A DNA stretch of 64,000 bases from Escherichia coli (GTDB taxonomy: Bacteria > Pseudomonadota > Gammaproteobacteria > Enterobacterales > Enterobacteriaceae), in the NCBI RefSeq assembly GCF_016026235.1, contig NZ_CP065613.1; one strand, given 5' to 3'. A program made the translations under genes and the position numbers. The notes under the pieces are model-generated. The model was not told the origin of the DNA. It did no database searches and saw only the letters and a list, made by a program, of their open reading frames with translations. This document shows positions 40,889-49,100 of the stretch, piece by piece. Each line of letters begins with the position of its first letter. The stretch's first letter is position 1.

Positions 40889-41217
40889 CAGTTCACCACC
40901 TGTTCAAAATCGGCCGTTACAGTCACCCATAACGCCCCCACGCTTGCCGACCATTTACGACAAACCACCCTGATCGGTTTCCAGTCATAAGGTGGCGTCC
41001 ACTGAAATGCGCGGACGCCACCGTGCCGTTCCAGAAAGGCTTTTAAAGATGGGTGTTCACATTTACGAACACGTATCGTCACGCTGTAAATCGACAACTG
41101 GTTATTCAGTCCCGCCGCACGACGCTGTTCATAACCATCGCCCAGCTTCACTGTCACCACTTTCGGCTCTGATACCACATTCATATCCGGGCGCACTTTC
41201 CAGTGAAACGTCTCCAT
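40888..41217 (-). CDS. Minor tail protein M (lambda gpM-like)
   Basis: 109-aa ORF, same length as lambda M. Confidence 0.85.
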   Translation of the reverse strand: METFHWKVRPDMNVVSEPKVVTVKLGDGYEQRRAAGLNNQLSIYSVTIRVRKCEHPSLKAFLERHGGVRAFQWTPPYDWKPIRVVCRKWSASVGALWVTVTADFEQVVN

Positions 41218-44200
41218 TACCGATATGCTCCACTTAACCGACCACCATCACGGGCCTGCTGTTGCATAAAGTCCGCTGCCGCTTTTTTCCCAAGGTCATA
41301 AACCACCTTCAGGGCAGCCGGACCTATCTGCCCGTTCGTGCCATCGTTATTGATCTCGATGTTGTACTGCGGGGCAAACATCGCCATACCTGAACCACCA
41401 ATATCCGCCACAACCCCCAGCTTACCGTCAGCACCACGACGCAGTGGCAGAATGGCTTCAGGTCCAGCTTCCCCCATCACACCCGCGCCTTTTGCAAAAG
41501 CAAAAAACGTCGGACGGTTAACCACCGTGCCACTGTAACGACTCAAATCAGCAGACTGATAAATCCCCCCATTGGCATTCAGGGAAAGGCTGCTGAGATC
41601 AAATCCCAGTACACTGCCAATCCCTTTTATCGATTTCATCATGGTTGCCTGCGCCAGGATTTTCGCCATATCTGACAGCACCGAAGAGGTGAAGGATTTG
41701 AAGTTGAGTTTGCCGGTAGTGACAAAAGTTGCCAGGCCATTTCCCATGTTGCTGAAGGCTGATGAGAACACCTGTTCTGCTGTTCCTGCCGTATTGTCTG
41801 CATCCACGGTAAAATCCTGAAATGCACGCAGGACTCCGTTTTTCCAGTTACCCTGCACAACTTCAAGCTGTTGCCAGTAACGGCGATTCTCATTCAGTTG
41901 TCGGTTCAGGCTCTCCGTCAGCGCCTGCTCGGCCTTTCTGTAGTCATCCGTGTTATATGTCCCTTTCTGCTCACTATCCCGCCTCAACTGCTCCAGCTGT
42001 TGCTGGTATTTCTGGCGAAGACTCAGTTGTACCTGATATCGCTGCCGCTGCTGATCACCCATACCCACCGTGGCGATATCCAGGTCATGTTGCTGACGCT
42101 GAGCGCGCTCTTCTTCAGCCAGTTGACTGGTCAGCTGAATTGTTTTTTTCTTCAGATCGTTGAGTGCCGTTTGTTTCTGAAGCTCCTGCTGTTTTACATC
42201 CAGCAGCGTCAGTGCCTGAATCAGCTCATTCTTACGGGCCAGCACACTCTTTTCATCTGCCGTCAGCTTTTTCCCGTCCAGGTCGCTGATGCGCTGCTGC
42301 AGGGCCAGAAGCTGTTTATGCGCTTCAGTCATCCTTTCAGTGGCAATGCCTGCTGACTGTCTTGCAGCAGCAATCTGTCCTTCCACCTGTGCCTGTTGCT
42401 GACTGTACTGCAGCAATAACCGGGTGGCCTCATCATTACGGGTTTCGCGTGTTTTTTTCTTACCGGATGCCAGGGCTTTCTCGTAACGTTCATTTTCACG
42501 TTGTATCGCCGCATCCCTGACAGCCTGGTCGGCGTACTGCATGGCATTAATACGCGCAATTTCACGCTGATGTCGTGCTGCTTCCGTTTCATTCATCCGG
42601 TTCAGTGCAGCATTTTCAGCATTACGTCGTTTCTGTTGCTCCTGATAATTCCGCTCTGCCTGCTCTTTTGCATCCTGCAAATCCTTCTGGCGTTTTTTCT
42701 CCTGAAGATCGTTAAGACGCTGCTGATCGTATTCAACCTGAGAAGATGATGCCGTCCAGGGGAGTCTTTTCGCCCGCGACACTTTCTCCTGTAAAGCGGT
42801 AATCTGTTCATCCAGCGAGTCTTCACGACCAATATTCATGGCCGCATCCCAGAAACGACTCCACAAATCAGACAGATACTTCAGCGTACTGCCAAGCGCA
42901 TTGAGGTTATTATCAATATCCGCAGTACGCCGACCGGTTTCCTCTGCCAGTGCAGACATGGCTATCCGTGCAGCATCACTGGACCGTCCCTGATCCCCAA
43001 GGACACGTATCTGCTCAAGCTGAGTGGCAGTAAGAAAATGCAGCTCATTGTCCAGAGCCTTCGCGGCATTTACAGGATCATCCTTCAGCCGCTTAAACTG
43101 ATTTATGGTATCGCTGACCGACTGGCCAACCGATCGCTCCATCTGTGCGGCAGCTCTCGCCACCATACCGATATCGTTTCCACGAAATGCACCACTCCCC
43201 ACCACCTGCGCCAACGCACCGGCTGCAGCATGTTGCGTGATACCATTCCCGGAAATAGCACGACTGAGCGTCCACAGCTGCCCGGCAGTGACTCCGGCAT
43301 AATGCCCCGTCAGCGACAACTGGCGGTTAAATTCTTCCCCCTCCTTCTGACCGTCATACCAGGCTTTACCCAGACCATAGACGGCCGCGGCAATACCGCC
43401 AATAACCCCGCCAAGCATCATGCCTTTCGGTGACATCAGTGCGCCTGTCCATCCGGCACGGTTAGCCAGCGTTATCCCGGATCCCCTCAGCGCCCCTAAA
43501 TTGCCGCGGGCCAGTTCACCTATCAGAACGCCTATCTCCTGGCGGGCTGCTGCACTTTTCAGACCCAGCGAATGCGTGGCTTTTCCTGCCTGCTCCATTT
43601 TGCGGATATACACTTCTGCAGCACTGCTTACCCCCAGCTGGGCTGCCCTGGCGCGAAGCAACTCAGAAGATGAAAGATTCTGGCGGGTTGCCTGCTCTTT
43701 AAGCTGACGGATAAACGCCACTTTCTGTCGGGTAGCCTCTTCCTCAGCCTGTGTAAGAACACGGGTTTTCGCAGTAACCTCAGAAATCAGCGCCAGATAA
43801 TCCTGCTGACCAATCCCGCCACTGTTTCTGGCCTGTCGGATCTGCTGCTGAATACGCTGTAATTCCTGCAGCCCCGCACTGGCCTGTTTCACACTGTCAA
43901 TCTGACGATAAAACGCAGCAGCCGCTTTATCCTGAGCCTCCGCCAGAGCCATGGCCTGCGCCTGTTCCTCGCGCATTTTCTGGCTCAGCGCCTCCATGCG
44001 CTGGCGGGTTTTCTCCACCTCGCGGGCCATGCGTTCATGAGCCTGTGCGTTCTTCTCCACCGTCTGCGCATGGACGGATGCGGCTGTTGCAGCCGAAGAA
44101 GCCGCCTGCGTTGTCTGCCGGGCGGCCTGAGTCTGACGCTCCATAAAACGCTGCATACGGGCAGAAGACCGTTCTGCATCGCTGGCTGCACCATTCAGAA

Positions 44201-44282
44201 GGTTTTTGATACGGGGAATTTCATTTTTAAACTCTGCCGCATCAATCCCCAAATCAATGACCAGGTTGGCTATCTGGTCCAT
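41217..44282 (-). CDS. Tail tape measure protein H (lambda gpH-like), start taken at MDQIANLVIDLGIDAAEF
   Basis: ORF 41217-44312; coiled-coil-rich about 1020-aa protein with gpH-like N- and C-termini (...NNDGTNGQIGPAALK...). Confidence 0.85.
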   Translation of the reverse strand: MDQIANLVIDLGIDAAEFKNEIPRIKNLLNGAASDAERSSARMQRFMERQTQAARQTTQAASSAATAASVHAQTVEKNAQAHERMAREVEKTRQRMEALSQKMREEQAQAMALAEAQDKAAAAFYRQIDSVKQASAGLQELQRIQQQIRQARNSGGIGQQDYLALISEVTAKTRVLTQAEEEATRQKVAFIRQLKEQATRQNLSSSELLRARAAQLGVSSAAEVYIRKMEQAGKATHSLGLKSAAARQEIGVLIGELARGNLGALRGSGITLANRAGWTGALMSPKGMMLGGVIGGIAAAVYGLGKAWYDGQKEGEEFNRQLSLTGHYAGVTAGQLWTLSRAISGNGITQHAAAGALAQVVGSGAFRGNDIGMVARAAAQMERSVGQSVSDTINQFKRLKDDPVNAAKALDNELHFLTATQLEQIRVLGDQGRSSDAARIAMSALAEETGRRTADIDNNLNALGSTLKYLSDLWSRFWDAAMNIGREDSLDEQITALQEKVSRAKRLPWTASSSQVEYDQQRLNDLQEKKRQKDLQDAKEQAERNYQEQQKRRNAENAALNRMNETEAARHQREIARINAMQYADQAVRDAAIQRENERYEKALASGKKKTRETRNDEATRLLLQYSQQQAQVEGQIAAARQSAGIATERMTEAHKQLLALQQRISDLDGKKLTADEKSVLARKNELIQALTLLDVKQQELQKQTALNDLKKKTIQLTSQLAEEERAQRQQHDLDIATVGMGDQQRQRYQVQLSLRQKYQQQLEQLRRDSEQKGTYNTDDYRKAEQALTESLNRQLNENRRYWQQLEVVQGNWKNGVLRAFQDFTVDADNTAGTAEQVFSSAFSNMGNGLATFVTTGKLNFKSFTSSVLSDMAKILAQATMMKSIKGIGSVLGFDLSSLSLNANGGIYQSADLSRYSGTVVNRPTFFAFAKGAGVMGEAGPEAILPLRRGADGKLGVVADIGGSGMAMFAPQYNIEINNDGTNGQIGPAALKVVYDLGKKAAADFMQQQARDGGRLSGAYR

Positions 44283-44583
44283 AACGCACACCTCCGGAAA
44301 TACCTTCCCCAAGATGCATCAGTTCTTCGTCCGTTCGCTCCGGTATCCCGTTCTCTTCCGGTAAAAGGCTGAAATCAGCCACCGCAGCATCACTGCTGCC
44401 GGACACCATTCTCACGATCAATGCCTTCAGCGAGGCAAACTGCGCATCCATCCACACATCACTGAAGCTCTGCATCCGGAAATAATCGCCCCACTCACCA
44501 AGCTCAGTGGCCGACATTTCCGACAGCATCCGCCGCCAGTCTGCCCGCCTGAACTCCCGGGCAAGCCGCATGACAAACTGCAT
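44254..44583 (-). CDS. gpT frame of the tail assembly chaperone pair; expected to be made only as a G-T fusion by -1 frameshifting
   Basis: 109-codon ORF in the -1 frame relative to G, overlapping the G 3' end and the H 5' end. Confidence 0.55.
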   Translation of the reverse strand: MQFVMRLAREFRRADWRRMLSEMSATELGEWGDYFRMQSFSDVWMDAQFASLKALIVRMVSGSSDAAVADFSLLPEENGIPERTDEELMHLGEGISGGVRYGPDSQPGH

Positions 44584-44591
44584 TTCCCGCG

Positions 44592-44978
44592 TCAGGACTT
44601 TTCCGGCGTCAGCACCTCATGCTCCAAATCCCCGGCATTCTCAATGGCTCCCATACCGCTCAGCGACAGAACCATCTCCGCCCCCGCTCCCAGGGCATCA
44701 TACGACCATGTTGTAATAACGGATGCGCAAAGCGTCTCAACATCCTGAGACTGTTCCGCATTCCACAGTGAGCGGGAAACCAGCCAGGCATTGATATCCA
44801 TCCCCATCCGTAGAAAAGCAATCTGTCGTTCAGCCTCCGGCAGTTCTCCCTCTTCGGCATCAAACTTTGCCGTTCGCTGCTGAACAAACGCCAGATATTC
44901 AATTCTCTGCAGCCCGGACAGCTCACTGAGCACCACGGACTGCTTTTCATAATTAAACGTGCCCTGTTTCAGAAACAT
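44592..44978 (-). CDS. Tail assembly chaperone G (lambda gpG-like)
   Basis: ORF 44592-44996; start at MFLKQGTFNYEKQSVVLSELSGLQRIEYLA, similar to the lambda G N-terminus. Confidence 0.8.
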   Translation of the reverse strand: MFLKQGTFNYEKQSVVLSELSGLQRIEYLAFVQQRTAKFDAEEGELPEAERQIAFLRMGMDINAWLVSRSLWNAEQSQDVETLCASVITTWSYDALGAGAEMVLSLSGMGAIENAGDLEHEVLTPEKS

Positions 44979-45037
44979 CATGTTCTCCGGATGCAAAAAG
45001 CCCCGGATAACCGGGGCAAATGATGAGTATCGTCCTG

Positions 45038-45669
45038 TTAACCTGCGGCGCTGACAGCCACCGTAGCCACTGCCACAAAATCGCCGTCAGAAGTCATGCC
45101 CACAATGCTGACACTGCCCTGCTTCACGCCTTTCACCGTGGCAGTCTGTGGATCTGTCGAATGCACACTGATCGCTTTGTCACTGGCTCCGTCAGGTTTT
45201 ACTGTAAAGGTCAGCGTGGTGGTTGCTCCCGCTTTGACACTGGCAGATGCCGGTGCCATCGTCAGCCCGGTAACGCCCACGATTTCAGTGCCTTCCTCTG
45301 CCAGATACGGAAAACATCAACAGTACCGTTGGGATATTTGATACGAAAAGCGCAGACTTCACCGGAGTCGAACAACTGAACCAGTTTTTTCTGCCCGCTG
45401 TCCCCCGGACGCCAGGCCAGCGTCGCCGAAGTATCACCGACTGATTTCTGCCCCTGGGTTGTCGTTTTCCAGTCTGCATCTTCATCATCGAGATAAGTGT
45501 CATCTTCTGCATCAGCGGTCATTTCGCCAGGTTGCAGATCCTTCACCATCGCAAGACGCAGCCAGTCAGTGTCCGATAAAGGGTTCGCAAACGCATCGCC
45601 CTTGCCGGTATACATCCAGAACGTCGTTCCCGCACCTTTCGTTTTTGCCAGTGGATTTGGTGTGGTCAT
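45038..45669 (-). pseudogene. Major tail protein V, disrupted by an out-of-frame internal deletion
   Basis: N-terminal part ([18 protein letters not shown]...VDVFR, then 14 out-of-frame codons and stop at 45262) and C-terminal Ig-like part (...[25 protein letters not shown]...) lie in different frames; about 30 codons present in lambda V are absent. Confidence 0.65.
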
Positions 45670-45679
45670 TACCACCTCC

Positions 45680-47345: not shown

Positions 47346-49057
47346 TTACGCCGTACATTTCACCAGACCGCGGTGATCAACTGGCGCGACACCGGCGTCA
47401 ATACGCACTTTCGTTGTCACGCCATCCACACTGAAGCCCTCCATCTGATCAATATATGGCGTATCCACACCGTTGAGATAAGCCACTTCAATCGTATCGG
47501 AGCCTTTTGACGCAGCCAAGTAGAAGGTGGTCTGGCTGTTATCATCAAGACGAGGCTCTGCAATAACGGTCGCAAAATCTTTCACCGGGTTAATAATACC
47601 GGCGTTAATGTCAGCCCCCTTGACACTTGAGGAGCGAATGACCTGGTTAGCAACAGACTCCATCGCCGTCGGTACCAGTACGAACGCAGGACGAATATTC
47701 AGATGACGCTCCCCCTCTTTCTGAACGCGCATCAACTGGCGGGCTTTATCCAGCGATGCCACGTCCATTGCAGCGCTCTCCAGTACGTTTGCATGTTTCG
47801 CTTTATCGAACAGACTTACATTATCTGTGGAGATTTTCGGGTTAGACGTCAGAATGGCATAAACCAGATCGGCAATAGTGGATTTCGCCGCACGGCCCAG
47901 TTTCATCGGGACATCGGTCAGCATATTCAGATCATCATTGATAATGGCCTGACGGGTGATACTGAACAGCTCGCCATAGGTCGCCAGTGCAATAGTGGCC
48001 TGTTTATCTCCGGTGGTGACGTATTTATATTCCGCCCCTTCACGCACCTGACGCAGAGCACTGAAGCCCCCCATACCCACACGATGGGCAATTTTAAAAT
48101 CAGACAACTGACCTTTCCGCGTCCACTGTTCATAGGTTTCAGGGGCATCTTCCCAGCCCTGCAGAATGGCTTTGTTCGCAACATCCAGCAGAATATTACC
48201 GAAGTCAGACGTACTGTGTGTGAACGCCGCACCGACCATCTGCATCGGGTTATAACCGGAAACCCCAATACCCCGTTCAGTCAGTGACATACGGGCATAT
48301 TCACGCAGGGTCATCCCGTTGTAGACATTATCACGTTCGGTTTTTTCAAATCCGGCACGCGCCATCAGCGCCTGGCGGATCCCGTCCCCCACAAAATTAC
48401 CGTTACCGGCATAAATATGAGCCGGGGTATTTTTATTGGATGGCGTGGACTCGCGCCCCATCTCGTTCAACAGCTTTTCACGGGCCTGCTCCAGCGAACA
48501 TTCAGGATCGGCAAGACACTGAGCCTGCAGCGTCTGATAACGCCCGCCAAACATGGCAAACAGATCATTAATACCGTTTACACGCGCTTTTTGCTCTGCC
48601 AGTACCTGCGCACGGATGCTGTTTTCATCCACCACGGGTGCTGCTGCCTGCACTGGCGTCCGGGAGGCTTCAGATTCATTATCCTGTACGCGTGGAGCAC
48701 TGTTGCGTGGCGGAGTAATCATGTTTCGAATGGATTCCGGCATCTTTTTAAATTCCTCTGTACGTTTTGACTGAATACATGCCATTGCCTTAACGGCTGG
48801 CGTTACCTGATCAGCAAATCCATGTGCCAGACATTCGGCACCGGACATCCAGGTCTCATCCGCCAGCATGGCAGCAATTTCATCGGTGGTTTTCCCGGTT
48901 TTCTGTGCATAAGCGGGTAACAGAACCGCCTCAACTTTATCGAGCAGGTCGGCATAGGTGCGCATGTCCTCCGCATCACCGCCCGTAAAGCCAAATGGTT
49001 TATGAATCATCATGAAGGTGTTTTCCGGCATAATGACCGGGTTTCCTACCATCGCAA
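47346..49057 (-). CDS. Prohead protease - major capsid protein fusion (HK97-like), 5'-truncated by the IS600-like insertion
   Basis: 575-aa ORF whose first codons (TTG at 49071-49073) lie inside the IS terminal repeat; N-terminal part ClpP-like, C-terminal about 330 aa capsid-like. Confidence 0.65.
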
Positions 49058-49100
49058 TGAGGTGTACTGGCAATAGCGGACACTACCATTTGTTCTTTTT

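What the first reader, a model, noticed from the sequence alone, without database searches (positions are those of the whole stretch)
44583..44610. Conserved G/T programmed -1 frameshift arrangement in the tail chaperone genes
The T frame is offset by -1 from G and overlaps the last G codons (...CCG GAA AAG TCC TGA). A G-T fusion would need a slip around CGGAAAAG, which is not the canonical lambda G GGA AAG heptamer. Either the slip site lies slightly upstream or it has mutated, which is another possible lesion.
Basis: partly seen in the sequence, partly recalled or inferred. Interest (0 to 1): 0.3.

Follow-up and report, generated by a model that had tools for sequence, protein, structure and literature searches.

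The report
Ordinary phage tail-chaperone G/T frameshift site
The tail-chaperone genes G and T of this E. coli prophage overlap as in phage lambda, and their slip sequence G GAA AAG is the conserved, already annotated form used by many viable relatives, not a mutation.

Summary
On the minus strand, G (44981..44592) ends ...ACG CCG GAA AAG TCC TGA. The T frame is -1 relative to G and overlaps its end. No canonical X XXY YYZ heptamer lies in phase anywhere in G.

The proposed reading (slip site elsewhere, or mutated) is not supported. The -1 frame is open for only 25 nt before the G stop. G GAA AAG (44604..44598) is the only shift-prone site there, and it opens a 114-codon T extension.

The same in-phase heptamer occurs in viable phages (phi458, Ayreon, mEp460, N15, HK225, mEp213). 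It also occurs in Gifsy-1, Gifsy-2 and Fels-1, and in 46 of 60 distinct junction contexts collected, although the 45 nt upstream are hypervariable. The N15 GenBank record annotates exactly GGAAAAG as the "slippery sequence for -1 translational frameshift".

T has no ribosome-binding site and no conserved start codon. T-frame conservation begins right after the heptamer.

Most likely mechanism: a low-level -1 slip. tRNA-Lys moves from AAG to AAA, and tRNA-Glu moves from GAA to GGA with a central G·U pair. This yields G plus a G-T fusion. No downstream RNA structure was found. [quoted passage not shown]

The real lesion nearby is an 85-nt frame-breaking deletion in the major tail gene V. The feature is already known and of low interest.

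The parts
44592..44981 (-). Gene G, tail assembly chaperone (129 aa, MMFLKQ...LTPEKS*)
   Evidence: ORF and translation. PF06894 Phage_TAC_2 at 1.9e-39. TIGR01674 phage_lambda_G at 188 bits against a cut-off of 74. Same start as annotated in Ayreon and mEp460.
44598..44604 (-). Slip heptamer G GAA AAG (0-frame codons GAA AAG; -1-frame codons GGA AAA)
   Evidence: Only shift-prone in-phase site in the 25-nt overlap, and the only one in G that opens a long -1 ORF of 114 codons. Invariant in relatives at 46-100% protein identity. Identical to the slippery sequence annotated in N15.
44254..44598 (-). T extension read in the -1 frame after the slip (VLTREMQFVMRLAREF...GPDSQPGH*). Joined to G residues 1-128 it gives a 242-aa G-T fusion.
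   Evidence: Translation. PF06223. TIGR01715 phage_lam_T at 134 bits, covering residues 133-239. phrog_32165 matches across the junction, residues 2-238. Fusion 100% identical to phage phi458 by tblastn.
44617..44619 (-). TGA stop in the -1 frame that closes the T frame upstream. It limits any productive slip to the last 25 nt of G.
44592..44594 (-). G stop codon TGA, one codon after the heptamer
44581..44583 (-). ATG that annotators use as the T start. It is probably an internal Met (M134 of the G-T fusion).
   Evidence: The preceding 20 nt, GAAAAGTCCTGACGCGGGAA, hold no correctly spaced SD. The codon is CTG or CTT in Gifsy-1, Fels-1, Gifsy-2, N15 and lambda. The invariant residue E133 lies upstream of it.
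44613..44618 (-). SD-like GAGGTG, 8 nt 5' of the heptamer. Possible auxiliary stimulator (low confidence).
   Evidence: Duplex with the 16S 3' end is -9.2 kcal/mol, within the strongest 5.5% of windows in this G gene. It weakens to GAGGCG in mEp460 and is absent in the N15 and lambda clades.
45000..45017 (-). Terminator-like hairpin between V and G (context)
   Evidence: Annotated as a rho-independent terminator in mEp460, Ayreon and N15.
41217..44282 (-). Tape measure gene H (context). Its start overlaps the end of T by 29 nt.
   Evidence: ORF list. Same overlap as in the Ayreon and mEp460 annotation.
45038..45672 (-). Major tail gene V (context), disrupted here
   Evidence: Phage_TTP_12 and Big_2 domains lie in different frames. 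There are 85-nt and 27-nt deletions relative to phi458, Ayreon and mEp460.

Best explanation
This is the normal lambda-type G/GT tail assembly chaperone pair, expressed by a programmed -1 ribosomal frameshift at G GAA AAG (44604..44598, minus strand). Most ribosomes read G through to TGA and make the 129-aa chaperone G. A small fraction slip back one base. tRNA-Lys (one species reads both AAA and AAG in E. coli) re-pairs from AAG to AAA. The P-site tRNA-Glu re-pairs from GAA to GGA, with two Watson-Crick pairs and a central G·U. Alternatively tRNA-Lys slips alone, which gives the same product. Translation then continues in the T frame and makes a 242-aa G-T fusion (...LTPEK-VLTREMQF...). By analogy with lambda, the G part binds the tape measure protein and the T part recruits the major tail protein, and the low slip rate sets the G:GT ratio. 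The heptamer is the native form for this phage lineage and for the N15, HK225, mEp213 and Gifsy lineages. It differs by one base from lambda's G GGA AAG. Shown here: gene identities, frames, the uniqueness of the site, its conservation, and the lack of an independent T start. Inferred: that slipping actually occurs, its rate, and which tRNAs move.
For: G and T domains are confirmed and lie in the -1 arrangement between V and H. The overlap is only 25 nt and holds a single candidate site. No canonical in-phase heptamer exists anywhere in G. The heptamer is in phase and at the homologous alignment position in 10 of 15 lambdoid G/T pairs from phage records, and in 46 of 60 distinct contexts once IMG/VR loci are included. 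The other contexts use G GGA AAG, A AAA AAG, G GCA AAA-TAG or G GAA AAA-TAG, and Vibrio phage HY01 uses C CCA AAA; all place a Lys AAR codon in the A site. The 45 nt upstream are hypervariable (mean column identity 0.54), and CACGCCGGAAAAGTCCTGA is invariant in Gifsy-1 although its flanks are only about 70% identical. The N15 GenBank record marks GGAAAAG as the -1 slippery sequence. The Gifsy-1 and Gifsy-2 records describe T as part of a frameshift product. T-frame conservation ([VA][LF]xxE[LMI]xF) starts right after the Lys, and the invariant E133 precedes the annotated ATG. TIGR01715 profile position 1 aligns to residue 133, and a PHROG of fusion proteins matches across the junction. The window's G-T fusion is 100% identical to that of viable phage phi458. 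Published background: A_AAG is the most shift-prone tetramer in E. coli (PMC4066793); a G:GT ratio of about 30:1 is required for lambda tail assembly (PMC5009743); and G:U-tolerant non-canonical motifs are discussed for annotated phage frameshifts (PMC10885494).
Against: In a reconstituted E. coli system, G GAA AAG served as the 'less slippery' control and gave mainly 0-frame product (PMC6924986). A_AAG alone is near background without a stimulator (PMC4066793). I found no downstream stimulatory RNA structure: z is about 0 in the window, and RNAalifold returned no pairs in the first 60 nt downstream and only one marginal 4-bp stem (-1.6 kcal/mol) further on, across 19 non-redundant relatives. 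No tool result or paper I could read shows a G-T protein from a G GAA AAG phage. RefSeq and most phage records annotate T as a separate CDS from the ATG.
Confidence: 0.86

Rival explanations
1. T is an independent gene, translated from its own ATG at 44583 as most database records annotate it. The overlap with G is incidental.
For: An in-frame ATG exists 9 nt after the G stop. mEp460, cdtI-like records and RefSeq PGAP start T there. GGGAA lies just before the ATG.
Against: The GGGAA abuts the ATG with about 1 nt of spacing, so it is not a usable SD. The ATG is CTG or CTT in Gifsy-1, Fels-1, Gifsy-2, N15 and lambda. T-frame amino-acid conservation, including the invariant E133, extends upstream of the ATG to the heptamer. 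The heptamer is conserved at the nucleotide level where the flanks are not.
Confidence: 0.06
2. The slip site has decayed from lambda's G GGA AAG, so this prophage no longer makes enough G-T.
For: It differs by one base from lambda's heptamer. G GAA AAG is poorly slippery in vitro. The prophage does carry a real lesion in V.
Against: The same heptamer is found in plaque-forming or inducible phages, including phi458 with a 100% identical G-T fusion. It is invariant across relatives down to 46% protein identity. It is annotated as the slip site in N15.
Confidence: 0.03
3. The frameshift is real but needs an extra stimulator to make the weak heptamer work. In this clade that would be the upstream SD-like GAGGTG pairing with 16S rRNA, as in dnaX. 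This is a refinement of the main explanation rather than an alternative.
For: GAGGTG lies 8 nt 5' of the heptamer and pairs at -9.2 kcal/mol. Across 11 contexts in the short-overlap clade the mean is -6.1, against a median of -2.9 for G-body windows (naive resampling P about 0.0004). Once aligned to the SD consensus, the spacing is within 1 nt of the dnaX arrangement (my own reckoning from the published dnaX sequence quoted).
Against: The motif weakens to GAGGCG in mEp460. It is absent in N15, mEp213 and lambda, which use the same or a similar heptamer. The region encodes an acidic linker rich in GAG/GAA/GGA, and the lineages are not independent, so the P value is inflated. For individual sequences, 4-42% of their own G-body windows are as strong.
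Confidence: 0.25

Closest known systems
Phage lambda G / G-T tail assembly chaperones (-1 frameshift at G GGA AAG)
   Same: Homologous G and T domains (TIGR01674 and TIGR01715 equivalogs; G-T fusion about 36% identical). Same gene order V-G-T-H. T lies in the -1 frame. The slip site is at the homologous alignment column. Both use an A-site Lys AAG. Neither shows an obvious downstream structure.
   Different: The third base of the heptamer is A rather than G, so the P-site codon is Glu GAA (re-pairing to GGA through a central G·U) rather than Gly GGA (re-pairing to GGG). The G stop is 1 codon after the heptamer rather than 5. The T part is shorter (114 codons against about 140).
Phage N15 gp14 / gene 15 (GenBank AF064539: 'slippery sequence for -1 translational frameshift')
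   Same: Identical heptamer G GAA AAG, in phase and at the homologous position. The downstream half is annotated as a frameshift product.
   Different: About 36% protein identity. The N15 overlap is longer (37 nt), the codon before the heptamer is GCG rather than CCG, and N15 has no SD-like motif upstream.
cdtI / mEp460 / Ayreon / phi458 phages and Salmonella Gifsy-1, Gifsy-2, Fels-1 G/T pairs
   Same: Same clade and same junction (A)CGCCGGAAAAGTCCTGA. DNA is 96-99.6% identical for the E. coli phages and 68-70% for the Salmonella phages.
   Different: Essentially nothing at the G/T junction. The window differs from these phages by deletions in the neighbouring V gene.
E. coli dnaX -1 frameshift (SD-like element + A AAA AAG + stem-loop)
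   Same: A-site Lys AAG read by the shift-prone tRNA-Lys. A possible upstream SD-like element at comparable spacing.
   Different: No downstream stem-loop. The P-site codon is non-canonical. The frameshift product is longer than the 0-frame product, not shorter. The genes are unrelated.

Membership tests
Lambda-type G/GT tail assembly chaperone pair | Upstream gene is a gpG homolog | tested here: met
   PF06894 at 1.9e-39. TIGR01674 equivalog at 188 bits against a cut-off of 74, full profile.
Lambda-type G/GT tail assembly chaperone pair | Downstream ORF is a gpT homolog in the -1 frame and overlaps the 3' end of G | tested here: met
   PF06223 at 5e-15. TIGR01715 at 134 bits against a cut-off of 77. 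25-nt overlap in the -1 frame.
Lambda-type G/GT tail assembly chaperone pair | Located between the major tail gene and the tape measure gene | tested here: met
   V domains lie upstream and a 1031-aa tape measure ORF lies downstream. Order identical to the annotated relatives.
Lambda-type G/GT tail assembly chaperone pair | Canonical X XXY YYZ slippery heptamer in the overlap | tested here: not met
   No in-phase canonical heptamer in the overlap or anywhere in G. The site is G GAA AAG.
Lambda-type G/GT tail assembly chaperone pair | A conserved shift-prone site in phase in the overlap (A-site tRNA re-pairs cognately in the -1 frame) | tested here: met
   A AAG lies within G GAA AAG. It is conserved in 46 of 60 distinct contexts, and all the variants keep an A-site Lys AAR codon.
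Lambda-type G/GT tail assembly chaperone pair | T has no independent translation start | tested here: met
   No correctly spaced SD. The ATG is not conserved. T-frame conservation starts at the heptamer. This is sequence inference only.
Lambda-type G/GT tail assembly chaperone pair | A G-T fusion protein is actually produced at a low ratio to G | not testable with these tools
   Needs a western blot, mass spectrometry or a reporter assay.
N15-type G GAA AAG slip site | Heptamer identical to the annotated N15 slippery sequence, in the same phase and at the same alignment position | tested here: met
   AF064539 misc_feature 10027..10033 is GGAAAAG. Homologous column in alignment A2.
dnaX-like three-part frameshift signal | Downstream stimulatory stem-loop or pseudoknot | tested here: not met
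   Fold z-scores range from -1.0 to +0.9. RNAalifold on 19 relatives gave no pairs in the first 60 nt downstream and only one marginal 4-bp stem (-1.6 kcal/mol) further on.
dnaX-like three-part frameshift signal | Upstream SD-like stimulator at about 6-17 nt | tested here: inconclusive
   GAGGTG is present in the window (-9.2 kcal/mol) and enriched in its clade. It is absent in the N15 and lambda clades, and the test is confounded by composition.

The most novel reading that the evidence does not exclude
G GAA AAG was used as a poorly slippery control in vitro, yet it is the predominant selected slip site of a large clade of lambdoid phages. This could mean one of three things. tRNA-Glu may tolerate the GGA codon (central G·U) far better in vivo than in vitro. 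These phages may run on a much lower G-T set-point than lambda. Or an unrecognised stimulator operates, such as the SD-like element in the cdtI/Gifsy clade, the nascent ...TPEK peptide, or the 3' pyrimidine context.
Probability: 0.2. Interest if true: 0.35.

Novelty: already known. Interest (0 to 1): 0.1.

Why it matters
For this window it mostly clears up a false alarm. The G/T junction is intact and typical, so it should not be counted among the prophage's defects. The practical point is for annotation. This tail module has a match in 2637 of 5426 complete E. coli genomes, and PGAP calls T as a separate CDS from an internal ATG. The likely real product is a G-T fusion made by a slip at a non-canonical heptamer, which scanners restricted to X XXY YYZ will miss. 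The one small open question is quantitative. How does a heptamer that is weak in vitro supply enough G-T? That could be settled with a simple reporter swap between G GAA AAG and G GGA AAG.

Tried and rejected
1. There is none in phase anywhere in G, and the -1 frame is closed upstream by TGA at 44619..44617.

2. I looked for a downstream stimulatory RNA structure. Single-sequence folds of 40-110 nt gave z from -1.0 to +0.9. RNAalifold on 19 non-redundant relatives gave no pairs in the first 60 nt downstream and only one marginal 4-bp stem (-1.6 kcal/mol) further on. Rejected.

3. Transcriptional slippage. The A run is only 4 nt, too short on established knowledge. Rejected without a test.

4. 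Slip at the G stop, with tRNA-Ser on UCC. There is no possible -1 re-pairing to GUC. Rejected by inspection.

5. Independent T initiation. No SD, and the ATG is not conserved.

6. Upstream SD-like stimulator. Suggestive in this clade but confounded, so kept only as a low-confidence refinement.

7. Literature. Xu, Hendrix and Duda 2004 (Mol Cell) is not held. Searches for GGAAAAG in phage papers found no measured efficiency for a G GAA AAG phage site. The only direct data are the in-vitro control of PMC6924986.

Full report
**What is there.** The genes lie on the minus strand. G runs 44981..44592 and encodes 129 aa. It ends ...GAG GTG CTG ACG CCG GAA AAG TCC TGA.

The frame one base back (-1) is closed by a TGA at 44619..44617. 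It is then open for 25 nt before the end of the G stop, and continues to a stop at 44256..44254.

Pfam and NCBIfam identify the two parts. G matches lambda gpG (PF06894 at 1.9e-39; TIGR01674 at 188 bits against a cut-off of 74). T matches lambda gpT (PF06223 at 5e-15; TIGR01715 at 134 bits against a cut-off of 77).

The pair sits between a major tail gene (Phage_TTP_12 plus Big_2 domains) and a 1031-aa tape measure ORF.

**Is the slip site elsewhere?** No. A scan of all in-phase positions of G found no X XXY YYZ heptamer at all. Of the four in-phase sites with a shift-prone A-site tetramer, only G GAA AAG at 44604..44598 opens a long -1 ORF of 114 codons. The others hit a stop within 1-25 codons. 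Any slip upstream of 44619 would terminate at once.

**Is it a mutated site?** No.
- The closest records are viable or inducible phages: phi458 (99.6% DNA identity), Ayreon, cdtI and mEp460. They carry exactly the same junction.
- The window's predicted G-T fusion is 100% identical to that of phi458.
- Salmonella Gifsy-1 is only about 70% identical overall and diverges strongly just upstream. It still keeps CACGCCGGAAAAGTCCTGA base for base.
- Among 15 lambdoid G/T pairs taken from phage records, G GAA AAG is in phase at the homologous position in ten: the window, Ayreon, mEp460, Gifsy-1, Gifsy-2, Fels-1, mEp213, Eeyore, N15 and HK225.
- In the same set, lambda, Turner and PhiR12_1 have G GGA AAG, a Stx2d phage has A AAA AAG, and Vibrio phage HY01 has C CCA AAA.

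A scan of IMG/VR with an alignment of G-T fusions (A2) added 80 loci. Over all sources there are 60 distinct 162-nt contexts:

| Heptamer | Distinct contexts |
|---|---|
| GGAAAAG | 46 |
| GGGAAAG | 6 |
| GGCAAAA followed by TAG | 5 |
| AAAAAAG | 2 |
| GGAAAAA followed by TAG | 1 |

The 45 nt upstream encode a variable acidic linker and are poorly conserved, with a mean column identity of 0.54. The codon before the heptamer varies (CCG, GCG, CTG) except for its last G.

The common denominator of all the variants is a Lys AAR codon in the A site that can re-pair with AAA after a -1 shift.

The N15 GenBank record (AF064539) carries a misc_feature "slippery sequence for -1 translational frameshift" at 10027..10033, which reads GGAAAAG. 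The Gifsy-1 and Gifsy-2 records describe their T genes as parts of a frameshift product. This variant of the slip site is therefore already on record.

**Does T have its own start?** Annotators, including PGAP, begin T at the ATG at 44583. Four observations argue against that start.
- The 20 nt before it are GAAAAGTCCTGACGCGGGAA, which contain no correctly spaced Shine-Dalgarno (SD) sequence.
- The codon is CTG or CTT in Gifsy-1, Fels-1, Gifsy-2, N15 and lambda.
- In the alignment of fusions, the T-frame pattern [VA][LF]xxE[LMI]xF begins immediately after the slip-site Lys. The invariant E133 lies upstream of that Met.
- TIGR01715 begins at residue 133, and a PHROG built from fusion proteins matches continuously across the junction, residues 2-238.

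**Mechanism.** The best reading is a low-frequency -1 slip on G GAA AAG.
- tRNA-Lys moves from AAG to AAA. In E. coli a single tRNA-Lys reads both codons.
- A_AAG is the most shift-prone tetramer measured (PMC4066793).
- The P-site tRNA-Glu would re-pair from GAA to GGA with a central G·U.
- A solo slip of tRNA-Lys would give the same protein, so the sequence cannot distinguish the two routes.
- The outcome is G plus a 242-aa G-T fusion. In lambda the two are needed at about 30:1, with G binding the tape measure and T binding the tail tube protein (PMC5009743).

Two caveats are worth stating.
- Peng et al. 2019 used exactly G GAA AAG as the "less slippery" control in a reconstituted system and saw mainly 0-frame product (PMC6924986).
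- Sharma et al. found A_AAG alone near background without a stimulator. They found about 0.3% for the best V_VVA_AAG heptamers alone, rising to about 3.7% with a favourable 3' context.

I found no stimulatory structure downstream. Fold z-scores ran from -1.0 to +0.9. RNAalifold across 19 non-redundant relatives returned no pairs in the first 60 nt downstream and only one marginal 4-bp stem (-1.6 kcal/mol) further on.

The window does have an SD-like GAGGTG (44618..44613) 8 nt upstream, which pairs with the 16S 3' end at -9.2 kcal/mol. Such motifs are stronger than typical G-body windows in the short-overlap clade: mean -6.1 against a median of -2.9, naive P about 0.0004. However, the motif is weaker in mEp460 and absent from the N15 and lambda clades. 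The region is an acidic, GAG/GGA-rich linker, and the lineages are related. I therefore treat this only as a possible helper.

The actual frameshift rate in G GAA AAG phages remains unmeasured as far as I could find.

**Comparison and novelty.** This is a member of the lambda G/GT family in every feature I could test, except for the strictly canonical heptamer. In that respect it matches the annotated N15 type instead. The module has a match in 2637 of 5426 complete E. coli genomes. It is already known and ordinary.

The only mildly interesting residue is the gap between the in-vitro weakness of G GAA AAG and its prevalence in nature.

**Context.** The real damage in this prophage's tail module is next door. 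Relative to phi458, which otherwise shows only 6 mismatches in 1.6 kb, the major tail gene V has lost 85 nt near 45308-45312 (frame-breaking). It has also lost 27 nt at 45143 (in frame, between 10-bp direct repeats). This splits the tube domain from the Ig-like domain. G and G-T would then lack a functional tube partner, but their own expression signal is intact.

Noticed in passing
window 45038..45672 (minus strand); deletion points at about 45308-45312 and 45143: The major tail gene V is broken. Relative to phi458, Ayreon and mEp460 (744-nt V), the window lacks 85 nt, which shifts the frame and leaves a 136-aa N-terminal product ending ...[15 protein letters not shown]. It also lacks 27 nt in the Big_2 domain. 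The 27-nt loss lies between direct repeats GCCACGGTGA, and the 85-nt loss has TCCG at both edges. The rest of the 1.6 kb differs from phi458 at only 6 bases, so the deletions look recent.
   Followed up: partly
window 45000..45017 (minus strand): A GC-rich hairpin, GCCCCGGTTATCCGGGGC, followed by TTTTT lies between V and G. It is annotated as a rho-independent terminator in mEp460, Ayreon and N15. The window's T run is one T shorter than in relatives (5 against 6).
   Followed up: partly
window 44989..44991 (minus strand), just upstream of the G start: A three-base difference from phi458 and Ayreon in the G leader (GCAGGTGGAG becomes GCATCCGGAG). The GGAG core before the ATG is kept, so the effect on G translation is probably small.
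   Followed up: no
loci L064-L066, L069, L070, L073 (GGCAAAA TAG) and L067 (GGAAAAA TAG), about 10 nt before the end of G: A sub-clade of relatives places the Lys AAA codon directly before the G stop codon TAG and has a P-site codon (GCA) that cannot re-pair. This suggests a single-tRNA slip helped by the adjacent stop, a different solution at the same junction.
   Followed up: no
RefSeq NZ_CP029115.1 1116169..1116498 (L097) and most phage records: T is routinely annotated as a free-standing CDS from an internal ATG, or from a later start as in Ayreon and phi458, with no ribosomal-slippage join. The likely true product, the G-T fusion, is therefore missing from protein databases for this very common module.
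   Followed up: partly
window 47346..49073 (minus strand): The ORF encoding the head protein looks like a fusion of a ClpP-like prohead protease and the major capsid protein (575 aa listed, apparently longer upstream). Seen only in the ORF list and not examined.
   Followed up: no
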